Source of the DNA: a virus
Lineage: Duplodnaviria; Heunggongvirae; Uroviricota; Caudoviricetes
Direction: 5' to 3' (one strand)
Length of the DNA: 47,976 nucleotides
IMG/VR virus record: IMGVR_UViG_2512047041_000006
The translations under genes and the position numbers were made by a program. The notes below the pieces were generated by a model, which did not search any database, had not been told where the DNA came from, and worked only from the letters and a program-made list of their open reading frames with translations. This document shows positions 4,547-23,257 of the stretch, in pieces. Each line of letters begins with the position of its first letter. Position 1 is the stretch's first letter.

Positions 4547-4600
4547 GGGCGGCAGAGCAGTCACGGAGTAAAACTGATACCGCCAAATGTCACCAGAAAA
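4547..4600 (-). ncRNA. dicF: DicF small RNA
   Basis: Minus-strand sequence TTTTCTGGTGACATTTGGCGGTATCAGTTTTACTCCGTGACTGCTCTGCCGCCC followed by T-run; near-identical to the 53-nt DicF of K-12 Qin prophage as recalled; includes its 3' stem-loop. Confidence 0.85.
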
Positions 4601-6458: not shown

Positions 6459-6495
6459 AACCTGTGGGTATTGACTTTTGTTTACCTGTGGGTAT
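6459..6495. promoter_or_regulatory. Right operator/promoter region (two repressor sites) between repressor and cro-like genes
   Basis: Direct repeat of AACCTGTGGGTAT (6459-6471) and TACCTGTGGGTAT (6483-6495) with TTGACT -35-like hexamer (6471-6476) between them; located in the 100-bp divergent intergenic region. Confidence 0.55.
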
Positions 6496-6523
6496 TCTTT
6501 GCTGTGTTTACTAAGGAGTAGCT

Positions 6524-10338: not shown

Positions 10339-11025
10339 ATGACCCCAATAAAAATATTTATGACTATTGCTGATTTCAAACGGCCTAAATTGGAGCTCCC
10401 AAACGGGGCAAACAAACTACTACTGCACTCTTGCTGTGCTCCATGTTCCGGTGAAGTGATGGAGGCGCTTCAGGCCTCGGGAATCGACTACACCATCTTT
10501 TTCTACAACCCGAACATTCATCCTCAGAAAGAGTATTTAATTCGTAAGGATGAAAATATTCGCTTTGCTGAACAACACGGCGTGCCGTTTATCGATGCTG
10601 ATTACGACACCGACAACTGGTTTGAACGTGCCAAAGGAATGGAATGGGAGCCTGAGAGGGGGATCCGTTGTACCATGTGTTTTGACATGCGTTTTGAGCG
10701 GACAGCGTTGTACGCTGCTGAAAATGGTTTCAGTGTGATCAGCAGTTCACTGGGCATTTCACGCTGGAAAAATATGCAGCAGGTTAACGAGTGTGGGCGG
10801 CGAGCTGTTGCGCATTATCCGGGTATGGTGTACTGGGATTATAACTGGCGCAAGCAGGGCGGCTCGTCCCGTATGATTGAAATCAGCAAGCGCGAAAAAT
10901 TCTATCAGCAGGAATATTGTGGCTGTGTGTATTCTCTGCGCGATACCAATCTACACCGCAAATCTCAGGGACGCCCTCTTATCAAAATTGGCCAACTCCA
11001 CTACGGAAAAGAAGAGAAGGAGTGA
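10339..11025 (+). CDS. queH: Epoxyqueuosine reductase QueH-like (DUF208)
   Basis: 228 aa with the DUF208/QueH cysteine motifs [11 protein letters not shown] and EYCGC; alternative start at 10360; no obvious SD at either start. Confidence 0.72.
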
Positions 11026-11262
11026 TTTTATGGATCACCTTTCTGATTGATTTCATATTGGCGAGGTGACGTGAGTTAAGTAGAATGGCTGCGGGTGCTT
11101 GAGGCTATCTGTCTCAGGCATGAACACTGAAAGGCAGATAGAGAAAAGCCCCAGTTAACATTTCGCGTCCTGCAAGACGCTTAACATTAATCTGAGGCCC
11201 AATCTATGTCTCACAAATGTAGGTTAGCCTCTTACGTGCCGAAAGGCAAGGGGAAGCAGGCT

Positions 11263-11418
11263 ATGAAGCAGCAAAAGGCGATGTTAATCGCCCTGATCGT
11301 CATCTGTTTAACCGTCATAGTGACGGCACTGGTAACGAGGAAAGACCTCTGCGAGGTACGACTCCGAACCGGCCAGACGGAGGTCGCTGTCTTCACAGCT
11401 TACGAACCTGAGGAGTAA
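11263..11418 (+). CDS. hok: Hok/Gef family type I toxin
   Basis: 51-aa product MKQQKAMLIALIVICLTVIVTALVTRKDLCEVR.RTGQTEVAVFTAYEPEE, near-identical to HokD/RelF as recalled; in-frame upstream extension from 11206 may be a mok-like leader ORF. Confidence 0.85.
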   Translation: MKQQKAMLIALIVICLTVIVTALVTRKDLCEVRLRTGQTEVAVFTAYEPEE

Positions 11419-11486
11419 GAGACCTGGCGGGGGAGAAATCCCTCGCCACCTCTGATGTGTCAGGCATCCTCAACGCACCCGCACTT

Positions 11487-11514
11487 AACCCGCTTCGGCG
11501 GGTTTTGTTTTTTC
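11487..11514 (+). terminator. Rho-independent terminator after hok
   Basis: AACCCGCTTCGGCGGGTT stem-loop followed by TTTGTTTTTT. Confidence 0.6.
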
Positions 11515-11584
11515 TGGCATTCTGGTTTACAATTCGCACGTCAGCCTGAACACCTGACACCTGCTGCGCCAGCAGAGAAAACAG

Positions 11585-11857
11585 ATGGCGCACAAAACCA
11601 AATTTCACAATTCTGATACCGACCTTGCCATCCGGCATGGGCGGCGTTCACACGCATTTAAAACCGACTGGTACCAACACCCACCATGTACTGAAGAACA
11701 GGCCGAATGGCTAATTCATAACTACCGCAGACGCGGATACGAGATTAAGAAAGCCCTCAGCCTCGATTATCGTCACTGGATAATCTCCGTCAGGCTTCCT
11801 TACTCTGAACGCCCACCGCGTCCGTCCCGCACATTCCAGCAACGCATCTGGAGGTAA
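11585..11857 (+). CDS. Hypothetical protein
   Basis: 90-aa ORF upstream of and abutting DUF968 gene. Confidence 0.4.
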   Translation: MAHKTKFHNSDTDLAIRHGRRSHAFKTDWYQHPPCTEEQAEWLIHNYRRRGYEIKKALSLDYRHWIISVRLPYSERPPRPSRTFQQRIWR

Positions 11858-15626: not shown

Positions 15627-15702
15627 GGCCCTTTAGCTCAGTGGTGAGAGCGAGCGACTCATAATCGCCAGGTCGCTGGTTCAAATCCAGCAAGGGCCAC
15701 CA
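15627..15702 (+). tRNA. ileZ: tRNA-Ile2 (anticodon CAT, lysidine type; ileX/ileZ-like)
   Basis: 76 nt with encoded CCA; full cloverleaf fits; near-identical to E. coli ileX as recalled. Confidence 0.85.
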
Positions 15703-15709
15703 TCACATA

Positions 15710-15786
15710 CCGCCATTAGCTCATCAGGAAAGAGCGCCAGCTTTCGAAGCTGGTTGCGCGGAGTTCGGGTCCCCGAAGGCGGTCCA
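15710..15786 (+). tRNA. tRNA-Arg-like (anticodon TCG), atypical
   Basis: 77 nt cloverleaf with encoded CCA, anticodon loop TTTCGAA; one acceptor-stem and one T-stem mismatch, T-loop TTCGGGT, discriminator T - possibly degenerate. Confidence 0.5.
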
Positions 15787-15799
15787 TTATCTGTATCCT

Positions 15800-15876
15800 G
15801 CGTTGTTAGCTCAGCCGGACAGAGCAATTGCCTTCTAAGCAATCGGTCACTGGTTCGAATCCAGTACAACGCGCCA
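15800..15876 (+). tRNA. tRNA-Arg (anticodon TCT, argU-like)
   Basis: 77 nt; canonical cloverleaf, T-loop TTCGAAT, anticodon loop CTTCTAA, encoded CCA. Confidence 0.85.
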
Positions 15877-15920: not shown

Positions 15921-16133
15921 CTCACAATTCAGGCGGTTGACTGTTGTCTGGTTTGCGGGGAGTTTGTTAAAAGAAACTGGCATGGTGAATCCCCCTGTGC
16001 GGAGGGGCAATCAGCGAGTAGGTATATGGGATAATCGCGGATTCAGGTGCTGGTACTGAATTCACCGGGAGGCACCCGGCACCATGCAATGGCACATAGC
16101 GCCACTCTCCAGCCCCTCTCCGGAGGGGCTTTT
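15921..16133 (+). repeat. Noncoding repeat module, copy A
   Basis: Shares ordered conserved blocks with copy B: CTCACAATTCAG, GTTGAC, TTGTTAAAA, GCATGGTGAATCCCCCTG-GCGGAGGGGC, TCACCGGGAGGCACCCGGCACCATG, AGCCCCTCTCCGGAGGGGCTTT. Confidence 0.6.
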
Positions 16134-16388
16134 CTGTGCCGGATACATCACAGTTTCTGGAACCTTAGGTACTACAGTATCAGTCAGGGTGCTATATTTT
16201 CAGATGTGATGAAAGCCTGTCAGCAGGCAGGGCGTATCGGAAATGACCCAGTAGAGAAAACGTTGACTCAGATACCGGTGCTGAGTTACCGGGAAACCGG
16301 CATCACATGACCGCTATCCTTCCAGGCCCATCCGCTCCGGTGGGCCTTTTTACTGCAGAAAACAGGTTCCCCGTTAAATGCTATGTTG

Positions 16389-16620
16389 CTCACAATTCAG
16401 TAAGTTGACAGTTGCCTGTCAGACTGGGCATTTGTTAAAAAAATTTCGCATGGTGAATCCCCCTGAGCGGAGGGGCGACTGGTGACGGTATAATCTCTGA
16501 TTATCAAAACGAGAATGACGCGGGTTTAGTGGCACCGGGCTGAACTCACCGGGAGGCACCCGGCACCATGTGCATGATGATACAGATACGCGGCTTTAGC
16601 CCCTCTCCGGAGGGGCTTTC
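16389..16620 (+). repeat. Noncoding repeat module, copy B
   Basis: Second copy 468 bp downstream of copy A; contains a perfect TATAAT (in GGTATAATCTCT) and the same three GC-rich hairpins. Confidence 0.6.
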
Positions 16621-16850
16621 TTATGGACAAAAAAAGCCCGCGCTGGGAGACGCGGGCGGCAAGGAATAAACAATAAAACGTGAAGTAATATTTCAGCTGG
16701 CGAATAATACCCCATAGTAATCACTCTGCGCAACTGCGCGGTCTTTTTCGAATTGCGGGCTGTAGTCTCCCTTCTGCCATTGTCCTGTAACTTCCGGACT
16801 TCAGCCTGCTCCTTATCTGACTCACAACATTATCCCGCCCGGGAGGATTC

Positions 16851-22043: not shown

Positions 22044-22934
22044 TCAGGCTGCCAGATCATCGTTTCCGATGGAAGCATAATAAGCTTTTTCTGCTTCTGC
22101 CGGAGGAGTATGGCCCAGCCTTTCCAGCAATCGTCGATTGTTATACCAGTCCACCCACGTGAGTGTGGCCAGTTCCACTTCTGCACGGTTTTTCCAGCTC
22201 TTACGGTGTATTACCTCCGCTTTGTAAAGACCATTGATGCTCTCCGCCATCGCGTTGTCATACGAGTCGCCTGTACTTCCTGTTGATGCCAGTAATCCGG
22301 CTTCCTTAAGCCGCTGTGTGTAGGCCAGCGATACATACTGAGAACCTTTATCACTGTGATGGACCGTGCCGGACGGTCGACGGGCCCATAACGCCTGCTC
22401 CAGTGCATCCAGCACGAATGTCGTTTCCATGGACGATGAGACCCGCCACCCCACGATGTATCCGGCAAACACATCAATGATGAACGCCACATAGACGAAG
22501 CCCCGCCATGTGCTGACGTAAGTAAAATCAGCCACCCACAGCTGGTCAGGTCGTTCTGCCACGAACTGACGGTTTACGCGGTCGCCTGCGGCAACGGCTT
22601 TCCGGCTGATGGTCGTACGGACCTTTTTACCCCGGAGAACACCGGCAAGTCCCATAACCGCCATGAGACGTGCCACAGTGCATCTGGCCACTCTGATACC
22701 TTCCCGTAACAACTGACGCCAGACTTTACGCACACCGTATACCTTGTGATTTTCATCGTATACGCGCTGTATCTCTTTCTTCAGCCAGTCATCGCGCTGC
22801 GCACGGGCACTGCGTTTATCCGGATGATGTCGCTGTTGCTGACAGTGGTAATACGTTGACGGGGCAATATGCAGTTCGCTGCATAGCGGTCCGACCCCGT
22901 ACTGCTCACGCAGCTTATCCAGCAGTGGCATCAT
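22044..22934 (-). CDS. IS3-family transposase OrfB (DDE integrase domain)
   Basis: 296 aa, IS629-type OrfB sequence; start overlaps orfA end at an A-rich site consistent with frameshift fusion. Confidence 0.9.
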
Positions 22935-23257
22935 TTTTTCCAGAGGCGGTCGAACTCCGCCTTCGCAAAATAAGCGGAAGCCTGGCGAAGGATATCGTTA
23001 CTGCGGCGCAGTTCACGATTTTCACGTTCCAGCTCTTTCAGACGCTGACGTTCAGCGGTGGTGAGCCCTCCATCACCGCCCCCGGTATCCCGCTCATGCT
23101 GGCGAACCCAGACACGCAGAGTCTCCGGCGTACAGCCAATCTTTGGAGCAATGGAACAAATTGTCGCCCATTGTGAGTCATATTCGCTCTGACTTTCCAG
23201 AACCATACGGACTGCCCGTTGACGGACTTCGGGGGAAAAACGAGTATTTTTAGTCAT
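22931..23257 (-). CDS. IS3-family transposase OrfA (HTH)
   Basis: 108 aa; leucine-zipper-like C-terminus; ends in TGGAAAAAATGA overlapping orfB start. Confidence 0.9.

What the first reader, a model, noticed from the sequence alone, without database searches (positions are those of the whole stretch)
11040..11520. hok-family type I toxin locus inside the prophage; antisense Sok-like RNA expected but not resolved
The 51-aa product is a near-exact Hok/Gef/RelF-type toxin and has an in-frame leader ORF from 11206 (mok-like) and a downstream terminator (11487-11514). hok loci are normally controlled by a short antisense RNA overlapping the leader; a candidate minus-strand promoter (TTGCCT-N17-TAACCT-like) lies around 11236-11208 but is weak. 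Such loci can stabilise the prophage or act in abortive infection.
Basis: partly seen in the sequence, partly recalled or inferred. Interest (0 to 1): 0.5.

Follow-up and report, generated by a model that had tools for sequence, protein, structure and literature searches.

The report
Complete prophage hok/mok/sok toxin-antitoxin locus

Summary
Window 11058-11514 holds a complete hok/mok/sok type I toxin-antitoxin locus of the hokD/hokW subfamily. The 51-aa Hok (11263-11418) hits Pfam HOK_GEF at 6e-23 and differs from K-12 HokD by one residue. The leader (11093-11268) hits Rfam RF01794 at 120.5 bits against a threshold of 59.

The unresolved Sok RNA is located. That stretch is identical over 30 nt to the functionally tested sokW promoter region of phage Sp5. 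The predicted start is 11214, which aligns with the annotated 5' end of K-12 sokC. The RNA is about 71 nt, ending near 11144, with a free 5' tail and a long hairpin plus U-tract.

Across 59 related loci the hairpin shows compensatory changes. It also has 220 G-U cells on the Sok strand against 4 on the mRNA strand.

The R1-type mRNA switches tested in silico are present: the tac/fbi end-pairing, the tac/ucb alternative and the metastable 5' hairpin.

About 75% of complete E. coli genomes carry such a locus. Verdict: already known, low interest. No expression or toxicity data exist for this copy.

The parts
11058..11086 (+). hok promoter: -35 TTGGCG (11058-11063), 17-nt spacer, -10 TAGAAT (11081-11086). 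The predicted start site is G 11093.
   Evidence: The promoter scan finds it at 9 of 12 matches. In most related loci a -10-like hexamer (TAGAAT, TATAAT, TACAAT and similar) is visible a few nt upstream of the conserved GGGTGCTTGAGG 5' end. The start site is inferred by alignment to the R1-type and hokC leaders and from the first position of the Rfam model.
11093..11512 (+). Full-length hok mRNA of about 420 nt, running from tac at the 5' end to the intrinsic terminator.
   Evidence: Homologous from end to end with Sp5 hokW, a Rac-type hok, an R1-type plasmid hok and K-12 hokC. The minimum-free-energy (MFE) fold closes the molecule by pairing its 5' and 3' ends.
11093..11104 (+). tac (translational activator element), GGGUGCUUGAGG. 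It pairs with fbi in the full-length mRNA and with ucb in the 3'-trimmed mRNA.
   Evidence: In the MFE of 11093-11512, 11093-11104 pairs with 11468-11480. In the MFE of RNAs ending at or before 11467, 11093-11100 pairs with 11146-11152. The first helix of the Rfam RF01794 consensus is the same tac/ucb stem.
11095..11121 (+). Metastable 5' hairpin of the nascent transcript. It sequesters tac before ucb and fbi have been made.
   Evidence: The MFE of the first 33-53 nt pairs 11095-11105 with 11111-11121 at -16.9 kcal/mol. The concept comes from R1 hok (PMC9841398).
11146..11152 (+). ucb (upstream complementary box, anti-SD), AAGCCCC.
   Evidence: It pairs with tac in the truncated-mRNA MFE and in the Rfam consensus structure. 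AGCCCC is invariant in the 5-locus leader alignment.
11144..11214 (-). Predicted Sok antisense RNA of about 71 nt. The 5' end is G at 11214. About 14 nt form a free 5' tail, followed by a 23-bp interrupted hairpin and then GGGGCUUUU. The 3' end is uncertain by about 6 nt.
   Evidence: The annotated K-12 sokC 5' end aligns to 11214 and its 3' end to about 11138. SokW is reported as 71 nt, and the SokW probe ends at the equivalent base. The fold is -29.3 kcal/mol, z = -5.3. Hairpin covariation and strand-specific G-U pairs appear in 59 loci.
11221..11249 (-). Sok promoter: -35 TTGCCT (11249->11244), 17-nt spacer, -10 TAACCT (11226->11221).
   Evidence: Coordinates were checked. The published oligo YO-597, which spans this region in Sp5, matches the minus strand 11251->11222 exactly. 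Mutation of the sokW -10 made the Sp5 locus toxic. The boxes are conserved in 59 loci: TTGCCT in 34, and -10 hexamers such as TAATCT, TAACCT and TATCCT.
11194..11231 (+). Sok target hairpin (SDmok/dcb stem). SDmok GAGG is at 11194-11197, the mok AUG at 11206, the loop CUCACAA at 11210-11216 (contains a YUNR motif, CUCA), and dcb GCCUC at 11226-11230.
   Evidence: MFE folds, the Rfam consensus helix, and a comparison of 53 distinct loci.
11206..11418 (+). mok-like reading frame of 70 aa, in frame with hok and sharing its stop codon.
   Evidence: ORF list. Its start aligns with K-12 mokC. An SD-N(5-9)-ATG arrangement opens an ORF that reaches to within 20 codons of the hok stop or beyond in 45 of 53 distinct related loci, in frame in 29 of them.
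11263..11418 (+). hok toxin gene, 51 aa: MKQQKAMLIALIVICLTVIVTALVTRKDLCEVRLRTGQTEVAVFTAYEPEE.
   Evidence: Pfam HOK_GEF 6.3e-23. All 18 columns invariant among four Hok proteins are kept. In 99.8%-identical E. coli loci the gene is annotated hokD.
11425..11448 (+). GC-rich stem-loop just after the stop codon. It is the likely 3' end-protecting hairpin of the processed, active mRNA; this role is inferred.
   Evidence: A 10-bp stem is present in every MFE fold. An equivalent GC hairpin follows the stop codon in the R1-type locus. The protective role rests on knowledge of R1 hok processing and was not tested here.
11468..11480 (+). fbi (fold-back inhibition element), CCUCAACGCACCC, complementary to tac with one bulged C.
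   Evidence: MFE pairing. The best tac duplex falls 45-58 nt after the stop codon in 62 of 70 loci, with coupled changes GGGUGC/GCACCC, GGGCGC/GCGCCC and GGCGC/GCGCC. Cognate pairings average -20.1 kcal/mol against -16.8 for non-cognate.
11487..11514 (+). Intrinsic terminator of the hok mRNA: stem AACCCGC-TTCG-GCGGGTT followed by a T-run.
   Evidence: Terminator scan. It is shared with K-12 hokD and a Rac-type locus but absent from Sp5 hokW.

Best explanation
This is an intact hok/mok/sok type I toxin-antitoxin module of the hokD/hokW subfamily. It is carried in the rightward early region of a lambdoid prophage.

Mechanism (shown for plasmid R1 and Sp5, inferred here from conserved anatomy):
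- A promoter at 11058-11086 makes a roughly 420-nt hok mRNA.
- While the RNA is being made, a 5' hairpin hides the tac element.
- Once complete, tac (11093-11104) pairs with fbi (11468-11480). This locks the RNA in an inert form that is neither translated nor bound by Sok.
- Slow 3' trimming removes the terminator and fbi.
- tac then pairs with ucb (11146-11152). The mok ribosome-binding site sits in the target hairpin (11194-11231).
- A short, unstable antisense RNA, Sok, is made from TTGCCT-N17-TAACCT and runs 11214->~11144. It binds this hairpin through its free 5' tail, blocks mok translation and therefore the coupled hok translation, and marks the duplex for RNase III.
- If Sok supply stops, the stored mRNA is translated. 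The 51-aa Hok peptide then inserts into the inner membrane and collapses it.

Physiological setting (less certain): by analogy with hokW-sokW of Sp5, Sok is lost when the prophage is induced. Hok then appears before holin and endolysin, which speeds lysis and raises phage release.
For: Toxin: Pfam HOK_GEF 6.3e-23. It is one residue from K-12 HokD and 90% identical to HokW.

Leader: Rfam RF01794 gives 120.5 bits against a gathering score of 59. That is at least as high as K-12 hokC (118.3), Sp5 hokW (113.5) and an R1-type plasmid locus (87.2).

mRNA switches reproduced in silico: the nascent hairpin, tac/fbi in the full-length RNA, and tac/ucb once the RNA ends at or before 11467. tac/fbi covaries across 70 loci.

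Sok:
- The promoter region is identical over 30 nt to that of sokW.
- The start aligns with annotated sokC.
- The fold has z = -5.3.
- The hairpin is 85.5% paired across 59 loci, against 35-55% in slid controls, and 8 pairs show changes on both sides.
- There are 220 G-U cells on the Sok strand against 4 on the mRNA strand.

Function of the orthologue (PMC8621323):
- HokW is toxic.
- SokW made from its own promoter neutralises it.
- SokW disappears after mitomycin C.
- HokW production after mitomycin C requires RecA.
- Phage yield halves without the locus.

Prevalence: 4071 of 5426 complete E. coli genomes hold at least 80% of the 481-nt query.
Against: - There are no transcript, toxicity or deletion data for this copy.
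- The Sok promoter matches only 7 of 12 consensus positions and fails the generic scan.
- The in-silico full-length fold keeps the SDmok/dcb hairpin and pairs ucb with GGGG 11250-11253. It does not pair ucb with SDmok as in the R1 model. The computation therefore reproduces the end-pairing but not every detail of how the full-length RNA is kept silent.
- This allele has two untested changes: I34L in Hok, and GGGG in place of GGAG in the hok ribosome-binding site.
- From memory of Pedersen & Gerdes 1999, several chromosomal hok loci of K-12 are inactive.
- The physiological role is extrapolated from Sp5. There the locus sits in a different neighbourhood and lacks the terminator hairpin.
Confidence: 0.88

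Rival explanations
1. Same molecular module, but its main role is prophage addiction. Cells that lose or excise the prophage keep stable hok mRNA, lose unstable Sok and die, as in post-segregational killing by plasmid R1.
For: All R1-type elements needed for delayed killing are present: a stable end-paired mRNA, 3' processing signals and a short antisense RNA. The family was discovered as a plasmid stabiliser (introduction of PMC8621323).
Against: It is not tested for any prophage hok locus in the papers read. Deleting hokW-sokW had no effect on growth of the lysogen. A cured cell retains at most the few mRNA copies made from a single gene copy, whereas on multicopy plasmids the dose is higher (inference).
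Confidence: 0.3
2. Same molecular module, but its main role is abortive infection. A superinfecting lytic phage that shuts off host transcription stops Sok synthesis, and Hok kills the cell before the invader matures.
For: R1 hok/sok on a high-copy plasmid reduced T4 plating by 42% and plaque size by about 85%, as cited in PMC8621323. Prophages commonly carry defence genes (general knowledge).
Against: The reported effect is modest and needed a high copy number. Nothing in this window ties the locus to defence genes. No PADLOC scan was run.
Confidence: 0.25
3. The locus is a silent relic: conserved in sequence but no longer able to kill, like several chromosomal hok loci of laboratory E. coli.
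For: Truncated or decayed relatives exist. K-12 hokD has lost its whole leader to relBE. In 8 of 53 distinct related loci the mok frame stops more than 20 codons short of the hok stop, six of them after only 19-24 codons. This allele carries I34L and a GGGG ribosome-binding-site variant.
Against: Every element is intact here and the Rfam score is the highest of the five loci compared. The allele is 99.8% identical in many unrelated E. coli strains, and the identical Sok region occurs in E. albertii. The 92%-identical hokW locus is active.
Confidence: 0.1
4. There is no Sok RNA here. The minus-strand promoter is too weak, and hok is controlled only by mRNA folding or by read-through from the phage early operon.
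For: The promoter matches 7 of 12 consensus positions and was not found by the scan. No RNA data exist for this window.
Against: The 30-nt promoter stretch is identical to the functional sokW promoter. The boxes are conserved in 59 loci. The hairpin carries G-U pairs that work only on the minus strand, 220 against 4, which is hard to explain without a minus-strand RNA under selection.
Confidence: 0.03

Closest known systems
hokW-sokW of Sakai prophage 5 (Stx2 phage VT2-Sakai / Sp5), Takada et al. 2021, PMC8621323
   Same: It is 92% identical at the DNA level over 87% of the query. Hok is 90% identical, with an in-frame 70-aa Mok. The Sok promoter stretch is identical over 30 nt. The extended Sok hairpin carries the same extra GCGUC...GACGC tip. 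The tac and fbi sequences are the same.
   Different: The Sok RNAs differ at 8 of 71 positions, 6 of them in the first 16 nt, which form the recognition tail. The Sp5 locus lacks the terminator hairpin after fbi. It also lies in a different neighbourhood, among small hypothetical ORFs next to an 8.4-kb ORF, rather than between the replication genes and Q. Hok differs at 5 residues, most at the C-terminus.
hokD (relF) of cryptic prophage Qin, E. coli K-12
   Same: Hok differs at one residue (I34L). The 3' UTR, fbi and terminator are nearly identical. The prophage position is the same, upstream of a DUF968/ydfU-type gene. RefSeq names the 99.8%-identical copies hokD.
   Different: In K-12 hokD everything upstream of the hok ribosome-binding site is replaced by relBE. 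It has no tac, ucb, mok or sok and gives no Rfam sok hit. The window has the complete locus and no relBE.
hok/mok/sok (parB) of plasmid R1
   Same: The architecture matches element by element: promoter, tac, ucb, SDmok, mok, target hairpin, dcb overlapping the Sok -10, convergent Sok promoter with a 17-nt spacer, hok, a GC hairpin after the stop codon, fbi and terminator.
   Different: Hok is only 43% identical. mok is in the +1 frame in true R1-type sequences but in frame here. tac/fbi is GGCGC/GCGCC rather than GGGUGC/GCACCC. The Sok hairpin is about 18 nt shorter. R1 is a plasmid and this is a prophage.
hokC (gef)/mokC/sokC of the E. coli K-12 chromosome
   Same: Hok is 80% identical, with an in-frame Mok. 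The annotated mokC start, hokC start and sokC 5' end align to window 11206, 11263 and 11214. The Rfam score is similar.
   Different: The Sok hairpin is shorter, the -10 hexamer differs (ACTCT type), and the locus lies in the core chromosome beside nhaA, interrupted downstream by IS186 in K-12.

Membership tests
hok/sok (Hok/Gef) type I toxin-antitoxin family | A roughly 50-aa Hok/Gef toxin with an N-terminal transmembrane segment and the conserved TRK-LCE...EVA-F-YE core. | tested here: met
   Pfam PF01848 at 6.3e-23, 80.6 bits against a cut-off of 22. All 18 columns invariant among four Hok proteins are kept.
hok/sok (Hok/Gef) type I toxin-antitoxin family | An overlapping mok reading frame with its own Shine-Dalgarno sequence, starting upstream of hok and running through it. 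| tested here: met
   GAGG 11194-11197 and ATG 11206 open a 70-codon ORF ending at the hok stop. The start aligns with K-12 mokC. The arrangement is kept in 45 of 53 distinct relatives.
hok/sok (Hok/Gef) type I toxin-antitoxin family | A convergent cis-antisense Sok gene opposite the mok translation start, with a promoter, a free 5' tail, and a hairpin with a U-tract. | tested here: met
   This is met at the sequence level. The promoter is at 11249->11221. The 5' end is set by alignment to sokC. The fold has z = -5.3. Covariation and strand-specific G-U pairs support the hairpin.
hok/sok (Hok/Gef) type I toxin-antitoxin family | Long-range tac/fbi pairing of the mRNA 5' and 3' ends, with coupled covariation. 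| tested here: met
   The MFE pairs 11093-11104 with 11468-11480. The duplex falls at a conserved distance from the stop codon in 62 of 70 loci, with three covarying sequence classes. Cognate pairings are stronger than non-cognate, and 5 of 1000 shuffles reach the observed energy.
hok/sok (Hok/Gef) type I toxin-antitoxin family | An alternative tac/ucb stem and SDmok/dcb target hairpin in the 3'-processed mRNA, and a metastable 5' hairpin in the nascent RNA. | tested here: met
   Rfam RF01794 consensus structure, 120.5 bits. MFE folds of RNAs ending at or before 11467 and of the first 33-53 nt. These are predictions only.
hok/sok (Hok/Gef) type I toxin-antitoxin family | In the full-length mRNA, SDmok is sequestered by ucb (R1 model). 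| tested here: inconclusive
   The full-length MFE keeps SDmok paired with dcb and pairs ucb with GGGG 11250-11253 instead. A ucb/SDmok pairing is possible by eye (GCCCCAG with CUGAGGC) but is not the predicted optimum.
hok/sok (Hok/Gef) type I toxin-antitoxin family | Hok kills when expressed, and Sok neutralises it through RNase III-dependent decay. | not testable with these tools
   Shown for the 92%-identical hokW-sokW locus (PMC8621323). Not shown for this copy.
hokD (relF) as defined in E. coli K-12 Qin | Hok sequence of the HokD type, located in a lambdoid prophage upstream of the DUF968/Q region. | tested here: met
   50 of 51 residues are identical. The neighbours are QueH, hok, orf90, DUF968, RusA and Q, compared with relBE, hokD, rem and ydfU in K-12.
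hokD (relF) as defined in E. coli K-12 Qin | The third gene of the relBEF operon, lacking its own leader, mok and sok. | tested here: not met
   The window has the full leader and no relBE. K-12 hokD shares homology only from the hok ribosome-binding site onward and gives no Rfam sok hit. The window is the intact form of which K-12 hokD is a truncation.
hokW-sokW (Sp5) subgroup | Extended Sok hairpin, the TTGCCT-N17-TAACCT promoter, and an in-frame 70-aa Mok. | tested here: met
hokW-sokW (Sp5) subgroup | The same Sok recognition tail, so that the two RNAs would be interchangeable. | tested here: not met
   6 of the first 16 Sok nucleotides differ. Cross-neutralisation is therefore doubtful and was not tested.

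The most novel reading that the evidence does not exclude
The most novel reading has two parts, and both are inference.

(a) Placement. The locus lies in the rightward early operon, co-directional with it. Its terminator is the first terminator-like site after the rightward promoter-like site at 6471-6498. On induction, antiterminated early transcription would run head-on into the Sok promoter and silence it. That would explain the unexplained, RecA-dependent loss of Sok reported for hokW-sokW, and the hok terminator would double as a gate before Q.

(b) Recognition tail. The Sok tail and target loop (11208-11219) is the most variable stretch among otherwise near-identical loci. No two co-resident copies share it. 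Several hok/sok modules in one genome could therefore work without cross-talk.
Probability: 0.2. Interest if true: 0.4.

Novelty: already known. Interest (0 to 1): 0.12.

Why it matters
It matters little as a discovery. The family has been studied since the 1980s, a 92%-identical prophage copy was characterised in 2021, and about three quarters of complete E. coli genomes carry such a locus.

The work has practical value for annotation:
- RefSeq records of the 99.8%-identical locus list only the hokD coding sequence.
- The Rfam family called 'sok' actually models the hok-sense leader.
- As a result, mok and the true antisense gene go unannotated or would be placed on the wrong strand.
- The element map given here can be transferred directly to the thousands of similar prophage copies.

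The intact locus also shows what K-12 hokD looked like before relBE replaced its control region.

Tried and rejected
(1) Generic sigma-70 scan for the Sok promoter. It finds nothing on the minus strand. The promoter was instead established by homology, conservation and a published oligo.

(2) IsrK. The hok 3' UTR gives sub-threshold Rfam isrK hits here (27.2 bits) and in two other hokD-type loci (33.2 and 25.1), against a gathering score of 50. In Gifsy-1, IsrK lies downstream of antQ and is described with its own promoter (PMC4825925). A BLAST search with the 3' UTR found no Gifsy-type locus. I treat this as a generic two-hairpin resemblance, not homology.

(3) Orthogonality of co-resident copies. 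Sok nt 1-14 are never identical in 25 co-resident pairs, with mean identity 0.645 against 0.913 for the promoter. Among pairs with at least 94% identical hairpins, however, 0 of 13 co-resident pairs share a tail against 20 of 145 pairs from different genomes (p = 0.38). There is no evidence that co-residence itself drives the divergence. The comparison is also confounded by phage immunity.

(4) YUNR U-turn motif in the target loop. It is present here (CUCA) and in 40 of 53 distinct loci. Chance expectation for loops of this size is roughly 30-40%, so the support is only weak.

(5) Read-through and interference as the trigger. This is suggested by the geometry here, but Sp5 hokW lies in a different neighbourhood. 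It cannot be the general explanation and is left as speculation.

(6) Not used: the large protein-database searches, structure prediction and a custom covariance model. Rfam, Pfam and direct alignments already settled the identity.
Full report
**What is in the sequence**

The 51-aa ORF runs from ATG 11263 to TAA 11416-11418. A 70-aa ORF from ATG 11206 is in the same frame and shares its stop codon. The short product matches Pfam PF01848 (Hok/Gef) at 6.3e-23. It differs from K-12 HokD only at I34L.

A terminator-like stem lies at 11487-11504 and is followed by a T-run. A plus-strand promoter-like site, TTGGCG-17-TAGAAT, sits at 11058-11086. On the minus strand, TTGCCT-N17-TAACCT lies at 11249->11221.

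The locus occupies 11058-11514.

**Context**

The neighbours, all on the same strand, are:
- YdaS/YdaT-like genes, an HTH_36 O-like gene and an IstB/DnaC-like ATPase;
- DUF1627, DUF977 and QueH (10339-11025);
- then hok, a 90-aa ORF, DUF968/HNH, RusA and antiterminator Q.

The window also holds DicF, three tRNAs and two STnc100 copies. A 99.8%-identical E. coli chromosomal locus has the same gene order. The locus therefore lies in the rightward early region of a lambdoid prophage, the same general position as hokD in Qin of K-12.

**Identity of the RNA elements**

Rfam RF01794 ('sok') matches 11093-11268 on the plus strand at 120.5 bits (gathering score 59, E 1.7e-28). The model ends at the hok AUG, so it describes the hok mRNA leader, not the antisense RNA. 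In K-12 it likewise hits the hokC-sense strand, while the annotated sokC is on the other strand. The score here is at least as high as for K-12 hokC (118.3), Sp5 hokW (113.5) and an R1-type plasmid locus (87.2). K-12 hokD gives no hit.

A six-way alignment shows homology from the promoter to fbi with Sp5 hokW, a Rac-type hok, an R1-type hok and hokC. K-12 hokD joins only from the hok ribosome-binding site onward, because relBE has replaced everything upstream.

**The mRNA switches**

The names and logic come from the R1 literature as summarised in PMC9841398. ViennaRNA folds of this sequence reproduce three steps.
- The first 33-53 nt form a hairpin, 11095-11105 with 11111-11121, that hides tac.
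- In the full-length RNA (11093-11512), tac 11093-11104 pairs with 11468-11480, which is fbi.
- In any RNA ending at or before 11467, tac 11093-11100 pairs with ucb 11146-11152 instead. This is the first helix of the Rfam consensus.

The tac/fbi duplex of -21.5 kcal/mol is reached by 5 of 1000 shuffles of the 3' UTR.

In 70 loci from Escherichia, Shigella, Kluyvera, Photorhabdus, Pantoea, Sodalis, Buttiauxella, Enterobacter and others, the best tac partner lies 45-58 nt after the stop codon in 62. The changes are coupled: GGGUGC/GCACCC, GGGCGC/GCGCCC, GGCGC/GCGCC, and CUCUGGAU with its complement. Cognate pairings average -20.1 kcal/mol against -16.8 for mismatched classes.

One detail does not reproduce. 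In the full-length fold, SDmok stays paired with dcb and ucb pairs with GGGG 11250-11253. In the R1 model ucb pairs with SDmok. I record that feature as inconclusive.

**Locating Sok**

Four independent lines agree.
1. *Annotated homologue.* The 5' end of K-12 sokC aligns to window 11214 and its 3' end to about 11138. mokC and hokC starts align to 11206 and 11263.
2. *Experimental orthologue.* The hokW-sokW paper reports a 71-nt SokW complementary to the hokW leader, made from its own promoter. Mutating the -10 element unmasked toxicity (PMC8621323). The paper's oligo spanning that promoter (YO-597) matches the window's minus strand 11251->11222 exactly. The SokW probe ends at the base equivalent to 11214.
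3. *Fold.* The RNA from 11214 to 11142 has a free tail of about 14 nt followed by a 23-bp interrupted hairpin and GGGGCUUUUCU. It folds at -29.3 kcal/mol, z = -5.3, with 0 of 200 shuffles as stable.
4. *Comparative evidence.* In 59 distinct loci the hairpin is 85.5% paired, against 35-55% when partners are slid. Eight pairs show changes on both sides, for example G-C 27 / A-U 24 and A-U 27 / G-C 26. There are 220 G-U cells on the Sok strand but only 4 that would be wobble pairs on the mRNA strand. Pairing is 85.5% on the Sok strand and 64.4% on the mRNA strand. That asymmetry is the signature of selection on a minus-strand RNA.

The promoter boxes are conserved. The -35 is TTGCCT in 34 of 59 loci, otherwise TTGACC or TTGCGC. 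The -10 is TAATCT, TAACCT, TATCCT and similar. The promoter looks weak against the consensus (7 of 12) and is missed by the generic scan, but it is the family's normal Sok promoter.

**mok and the target hairpin**

GAGG 11194-11197 lies 8 nt before the mok AUG. The hairpin 11194-11231 pairs SDmok with dcb (GCCUC 11226-11230, overlapping the Sok -10). Its loop is CUCACAA, 11210-11216, and the Sok 5' end is complementary to that loop.

Among 53 distinct related loci:
- 45 have an SD-ATG arrangement opening an ORF that reaches to within 20 codons of the hok stop or beyond;
- 29 have mok in frame with hok, as here and in hokC; 18 have it in the +1 frame, as in R1;
- 40 have a YUNR motif in the loop, which is only weak support.

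**How it most likely works**

The anatomy is that of R1 hok/sok, element for element. I therefore infer the R1 mechanism:
- an inert, end-paired full-length mRNA;
- slow 3' trimming back to the GC hairpin at 11425-11448;
- refolding to the tac/ucb form;
- then either Sok binding, with block of mok and of the coupled hok translation and RNase III cleavage, or, if Sok has decayed, synthesis of Hok and membrane collapse.

Only the sequence and structure steps are shown here. Expression, processing and toxicity are inferred.

For the biological role, the closest experimental system is hokW-sokW:
- both RNAs are present in the lysogen;
- SokW disappears after mitomycin C;
- HokW production requires RecA and begins about an hour before endolysin;
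- phage release halves without the locus.

I take induction-coupled help with lysis as the leading role. Addiction and abortive infection are non-exclusive rivals.

**Differences from the nearest relatives**

Against Sp5 hokW:
- Sok differs at 8 of 71 positions, six within the first 16 nt;
- Sp5 lacks the terminator hairpin;
- Sp5 sits in another neighbourhood.

Against K-12 hokD, this copy is complete. Against R1, Hok is only 43% identical, mok is in a different frame and the Sok hairpin is about 18 nt longer.

Among 14 hokD/W-type loci, the most variable stretches are 11208-11219 (the Sok tail and target loop, mean pairwise difference 0.41) and the loop of the 5' hairpin (0.40). The background elsewhere is mostly about 0.04-0.25, with the stretch just after the stop codon (11424-11447) also elevated at about 0.33-0.35. 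No two co-resident copies share a tail. The contrast with pairs from different genomes is not significant (p = 0.38).

**Novelty and verdict**

The locus is already known:
- 4937 of 5426 complete E. coli genomes match the query, and 4071 hold at least 80% of it;
- phage records annotate the same locus as MokW, HokD or 'host killer protein';
- a close orthologue has been characterised experimentally.

Interest is low.

What remains open is modest: whether this allele is active, what triggers Sok loss at induction, and whether tail divergence prevents cross-talk between copies.

Noticed in passing
window 11093-11268 (+); L005 602-754: The Rfam family RF01794, named 'sok antitoxin', matches the hok-sense strand and ends at the hok AUG. 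It models the hok mRNA leader, not the antisense RNA. In K-12 the hit lies on the hokC strand, while the annotated sokC (L005 653-711) is on the opposite strand. Annotation taken straight from Rfam would put 'sok' on the wrong strand and make it 2-3 times too long.
   Followed up: yes
L001 4224-4600 (equivalent to window ~11263-11639): The RefSeq annotation of a 99.8%-identical E. coli locus lists only the hokD CDS, with no mok and no sok RNA. It also lists a 59-aa minus-strand 'hypothetical protein' that overlaps the hok 3' UTR and terminator and the start of the next gene. That ORF is probably a spurious call.
   Followed up: partly
window 11427-11508 (+); L002 1853-1933; L004 1530-1611: The hok 3' UTR (the post-stop hairpin through the terminator) gives repeated sub-threshold matches to Rfam isrK: 27.2, 33.2 and 25.1 bits against a gathering score of 50. 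Sp5 hokW, which lacks the terminator, gives none. In Gifsy-1, IsrK lies downstream of antQ, so this is probably a resemblance of shape rather than common descent.
   Followed up: partly
window 11208-11219: The Sok 5' tail and target loop is one of the two most variable stretches among 14 otherwise near-identical hokD/W-type loci (mean pairwise difference 0.41, matched by the 5'-hairpin loop at 0.40). It is never identical between 25 co-resident pairs of loci. A test against pairs from different genomes was not significant (p = 0.38).
   Followed up: yes
window 6471-6498 to 11487-11514: The hok terminator is the first plus-strand terminator-like site downstream of the rightward promoter-like site at 6471-6498, and it lies just before the DUF968-RusA-Q block. 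It may act as an early-operon terminator gating Q. The Sok promoter would also face oncoming early transcription at induction.
   Followed up: no
window 10339-11025 (+): A phage-borne epoxyqueuosine reductase QueH (Pfam 1.1e-65) lies immediately upstream of hok, in a prophage that also carries three tRNA genes (15627-15873). This points to possible phage involvement in queuosine tRNA modification.
   Followed up: no
window 11250-11253: The hok ribosome-binding site reads AAGGGGAAG here and in an E. albertii copy (L007). Almost all relatives have AAGGAGAAG. In the full-length MFE fold these four G's pair with the CCCC of ucb.
   Followed up: partly
L031, L036, L083 (also L010, L015, L051): The K-12-type truncated hokD, with the same junction to relBE-derived sequence (…GCACCGAAGGTGACACTTCTG[CT]TTTGCGTTGACAG…), also occurs in a Kluyvera species, an unnamed Enterobacteriaceae bacterium and Escherichia sp. 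ESNIH1. The relBE-hokD fusion is therefore not peculiar to E. coli K-12.
   Followed up: no
L016, L026, L033, L070, L071, L072: Near-identical E. coli-type or R1-type hok loci sit on mostly short contigs (275 bp to about 5 kb; one of 22.9 kb) in assemblies labelled Veillonella, Acinetobacter, Xanthomonas, Ferruginibacter, Streptomyces and Oscillibacter. These are most likely enterobacterial or plasmid contamination of those assemblies.
   Followed up: no
window 4547-4598 (-), 15951-16141 and 16419-16628 (+), 22860-22976 (-): Other Rfam hits above threshold in the window are DicF (77 bits), two tandem STnc100 copies (136 and 165 bits) downstream of the tRNAs, and an ALIL pseudoknot (120 bits), the frameshift element of an IS3-family insertion sequence.
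   Followed up: no
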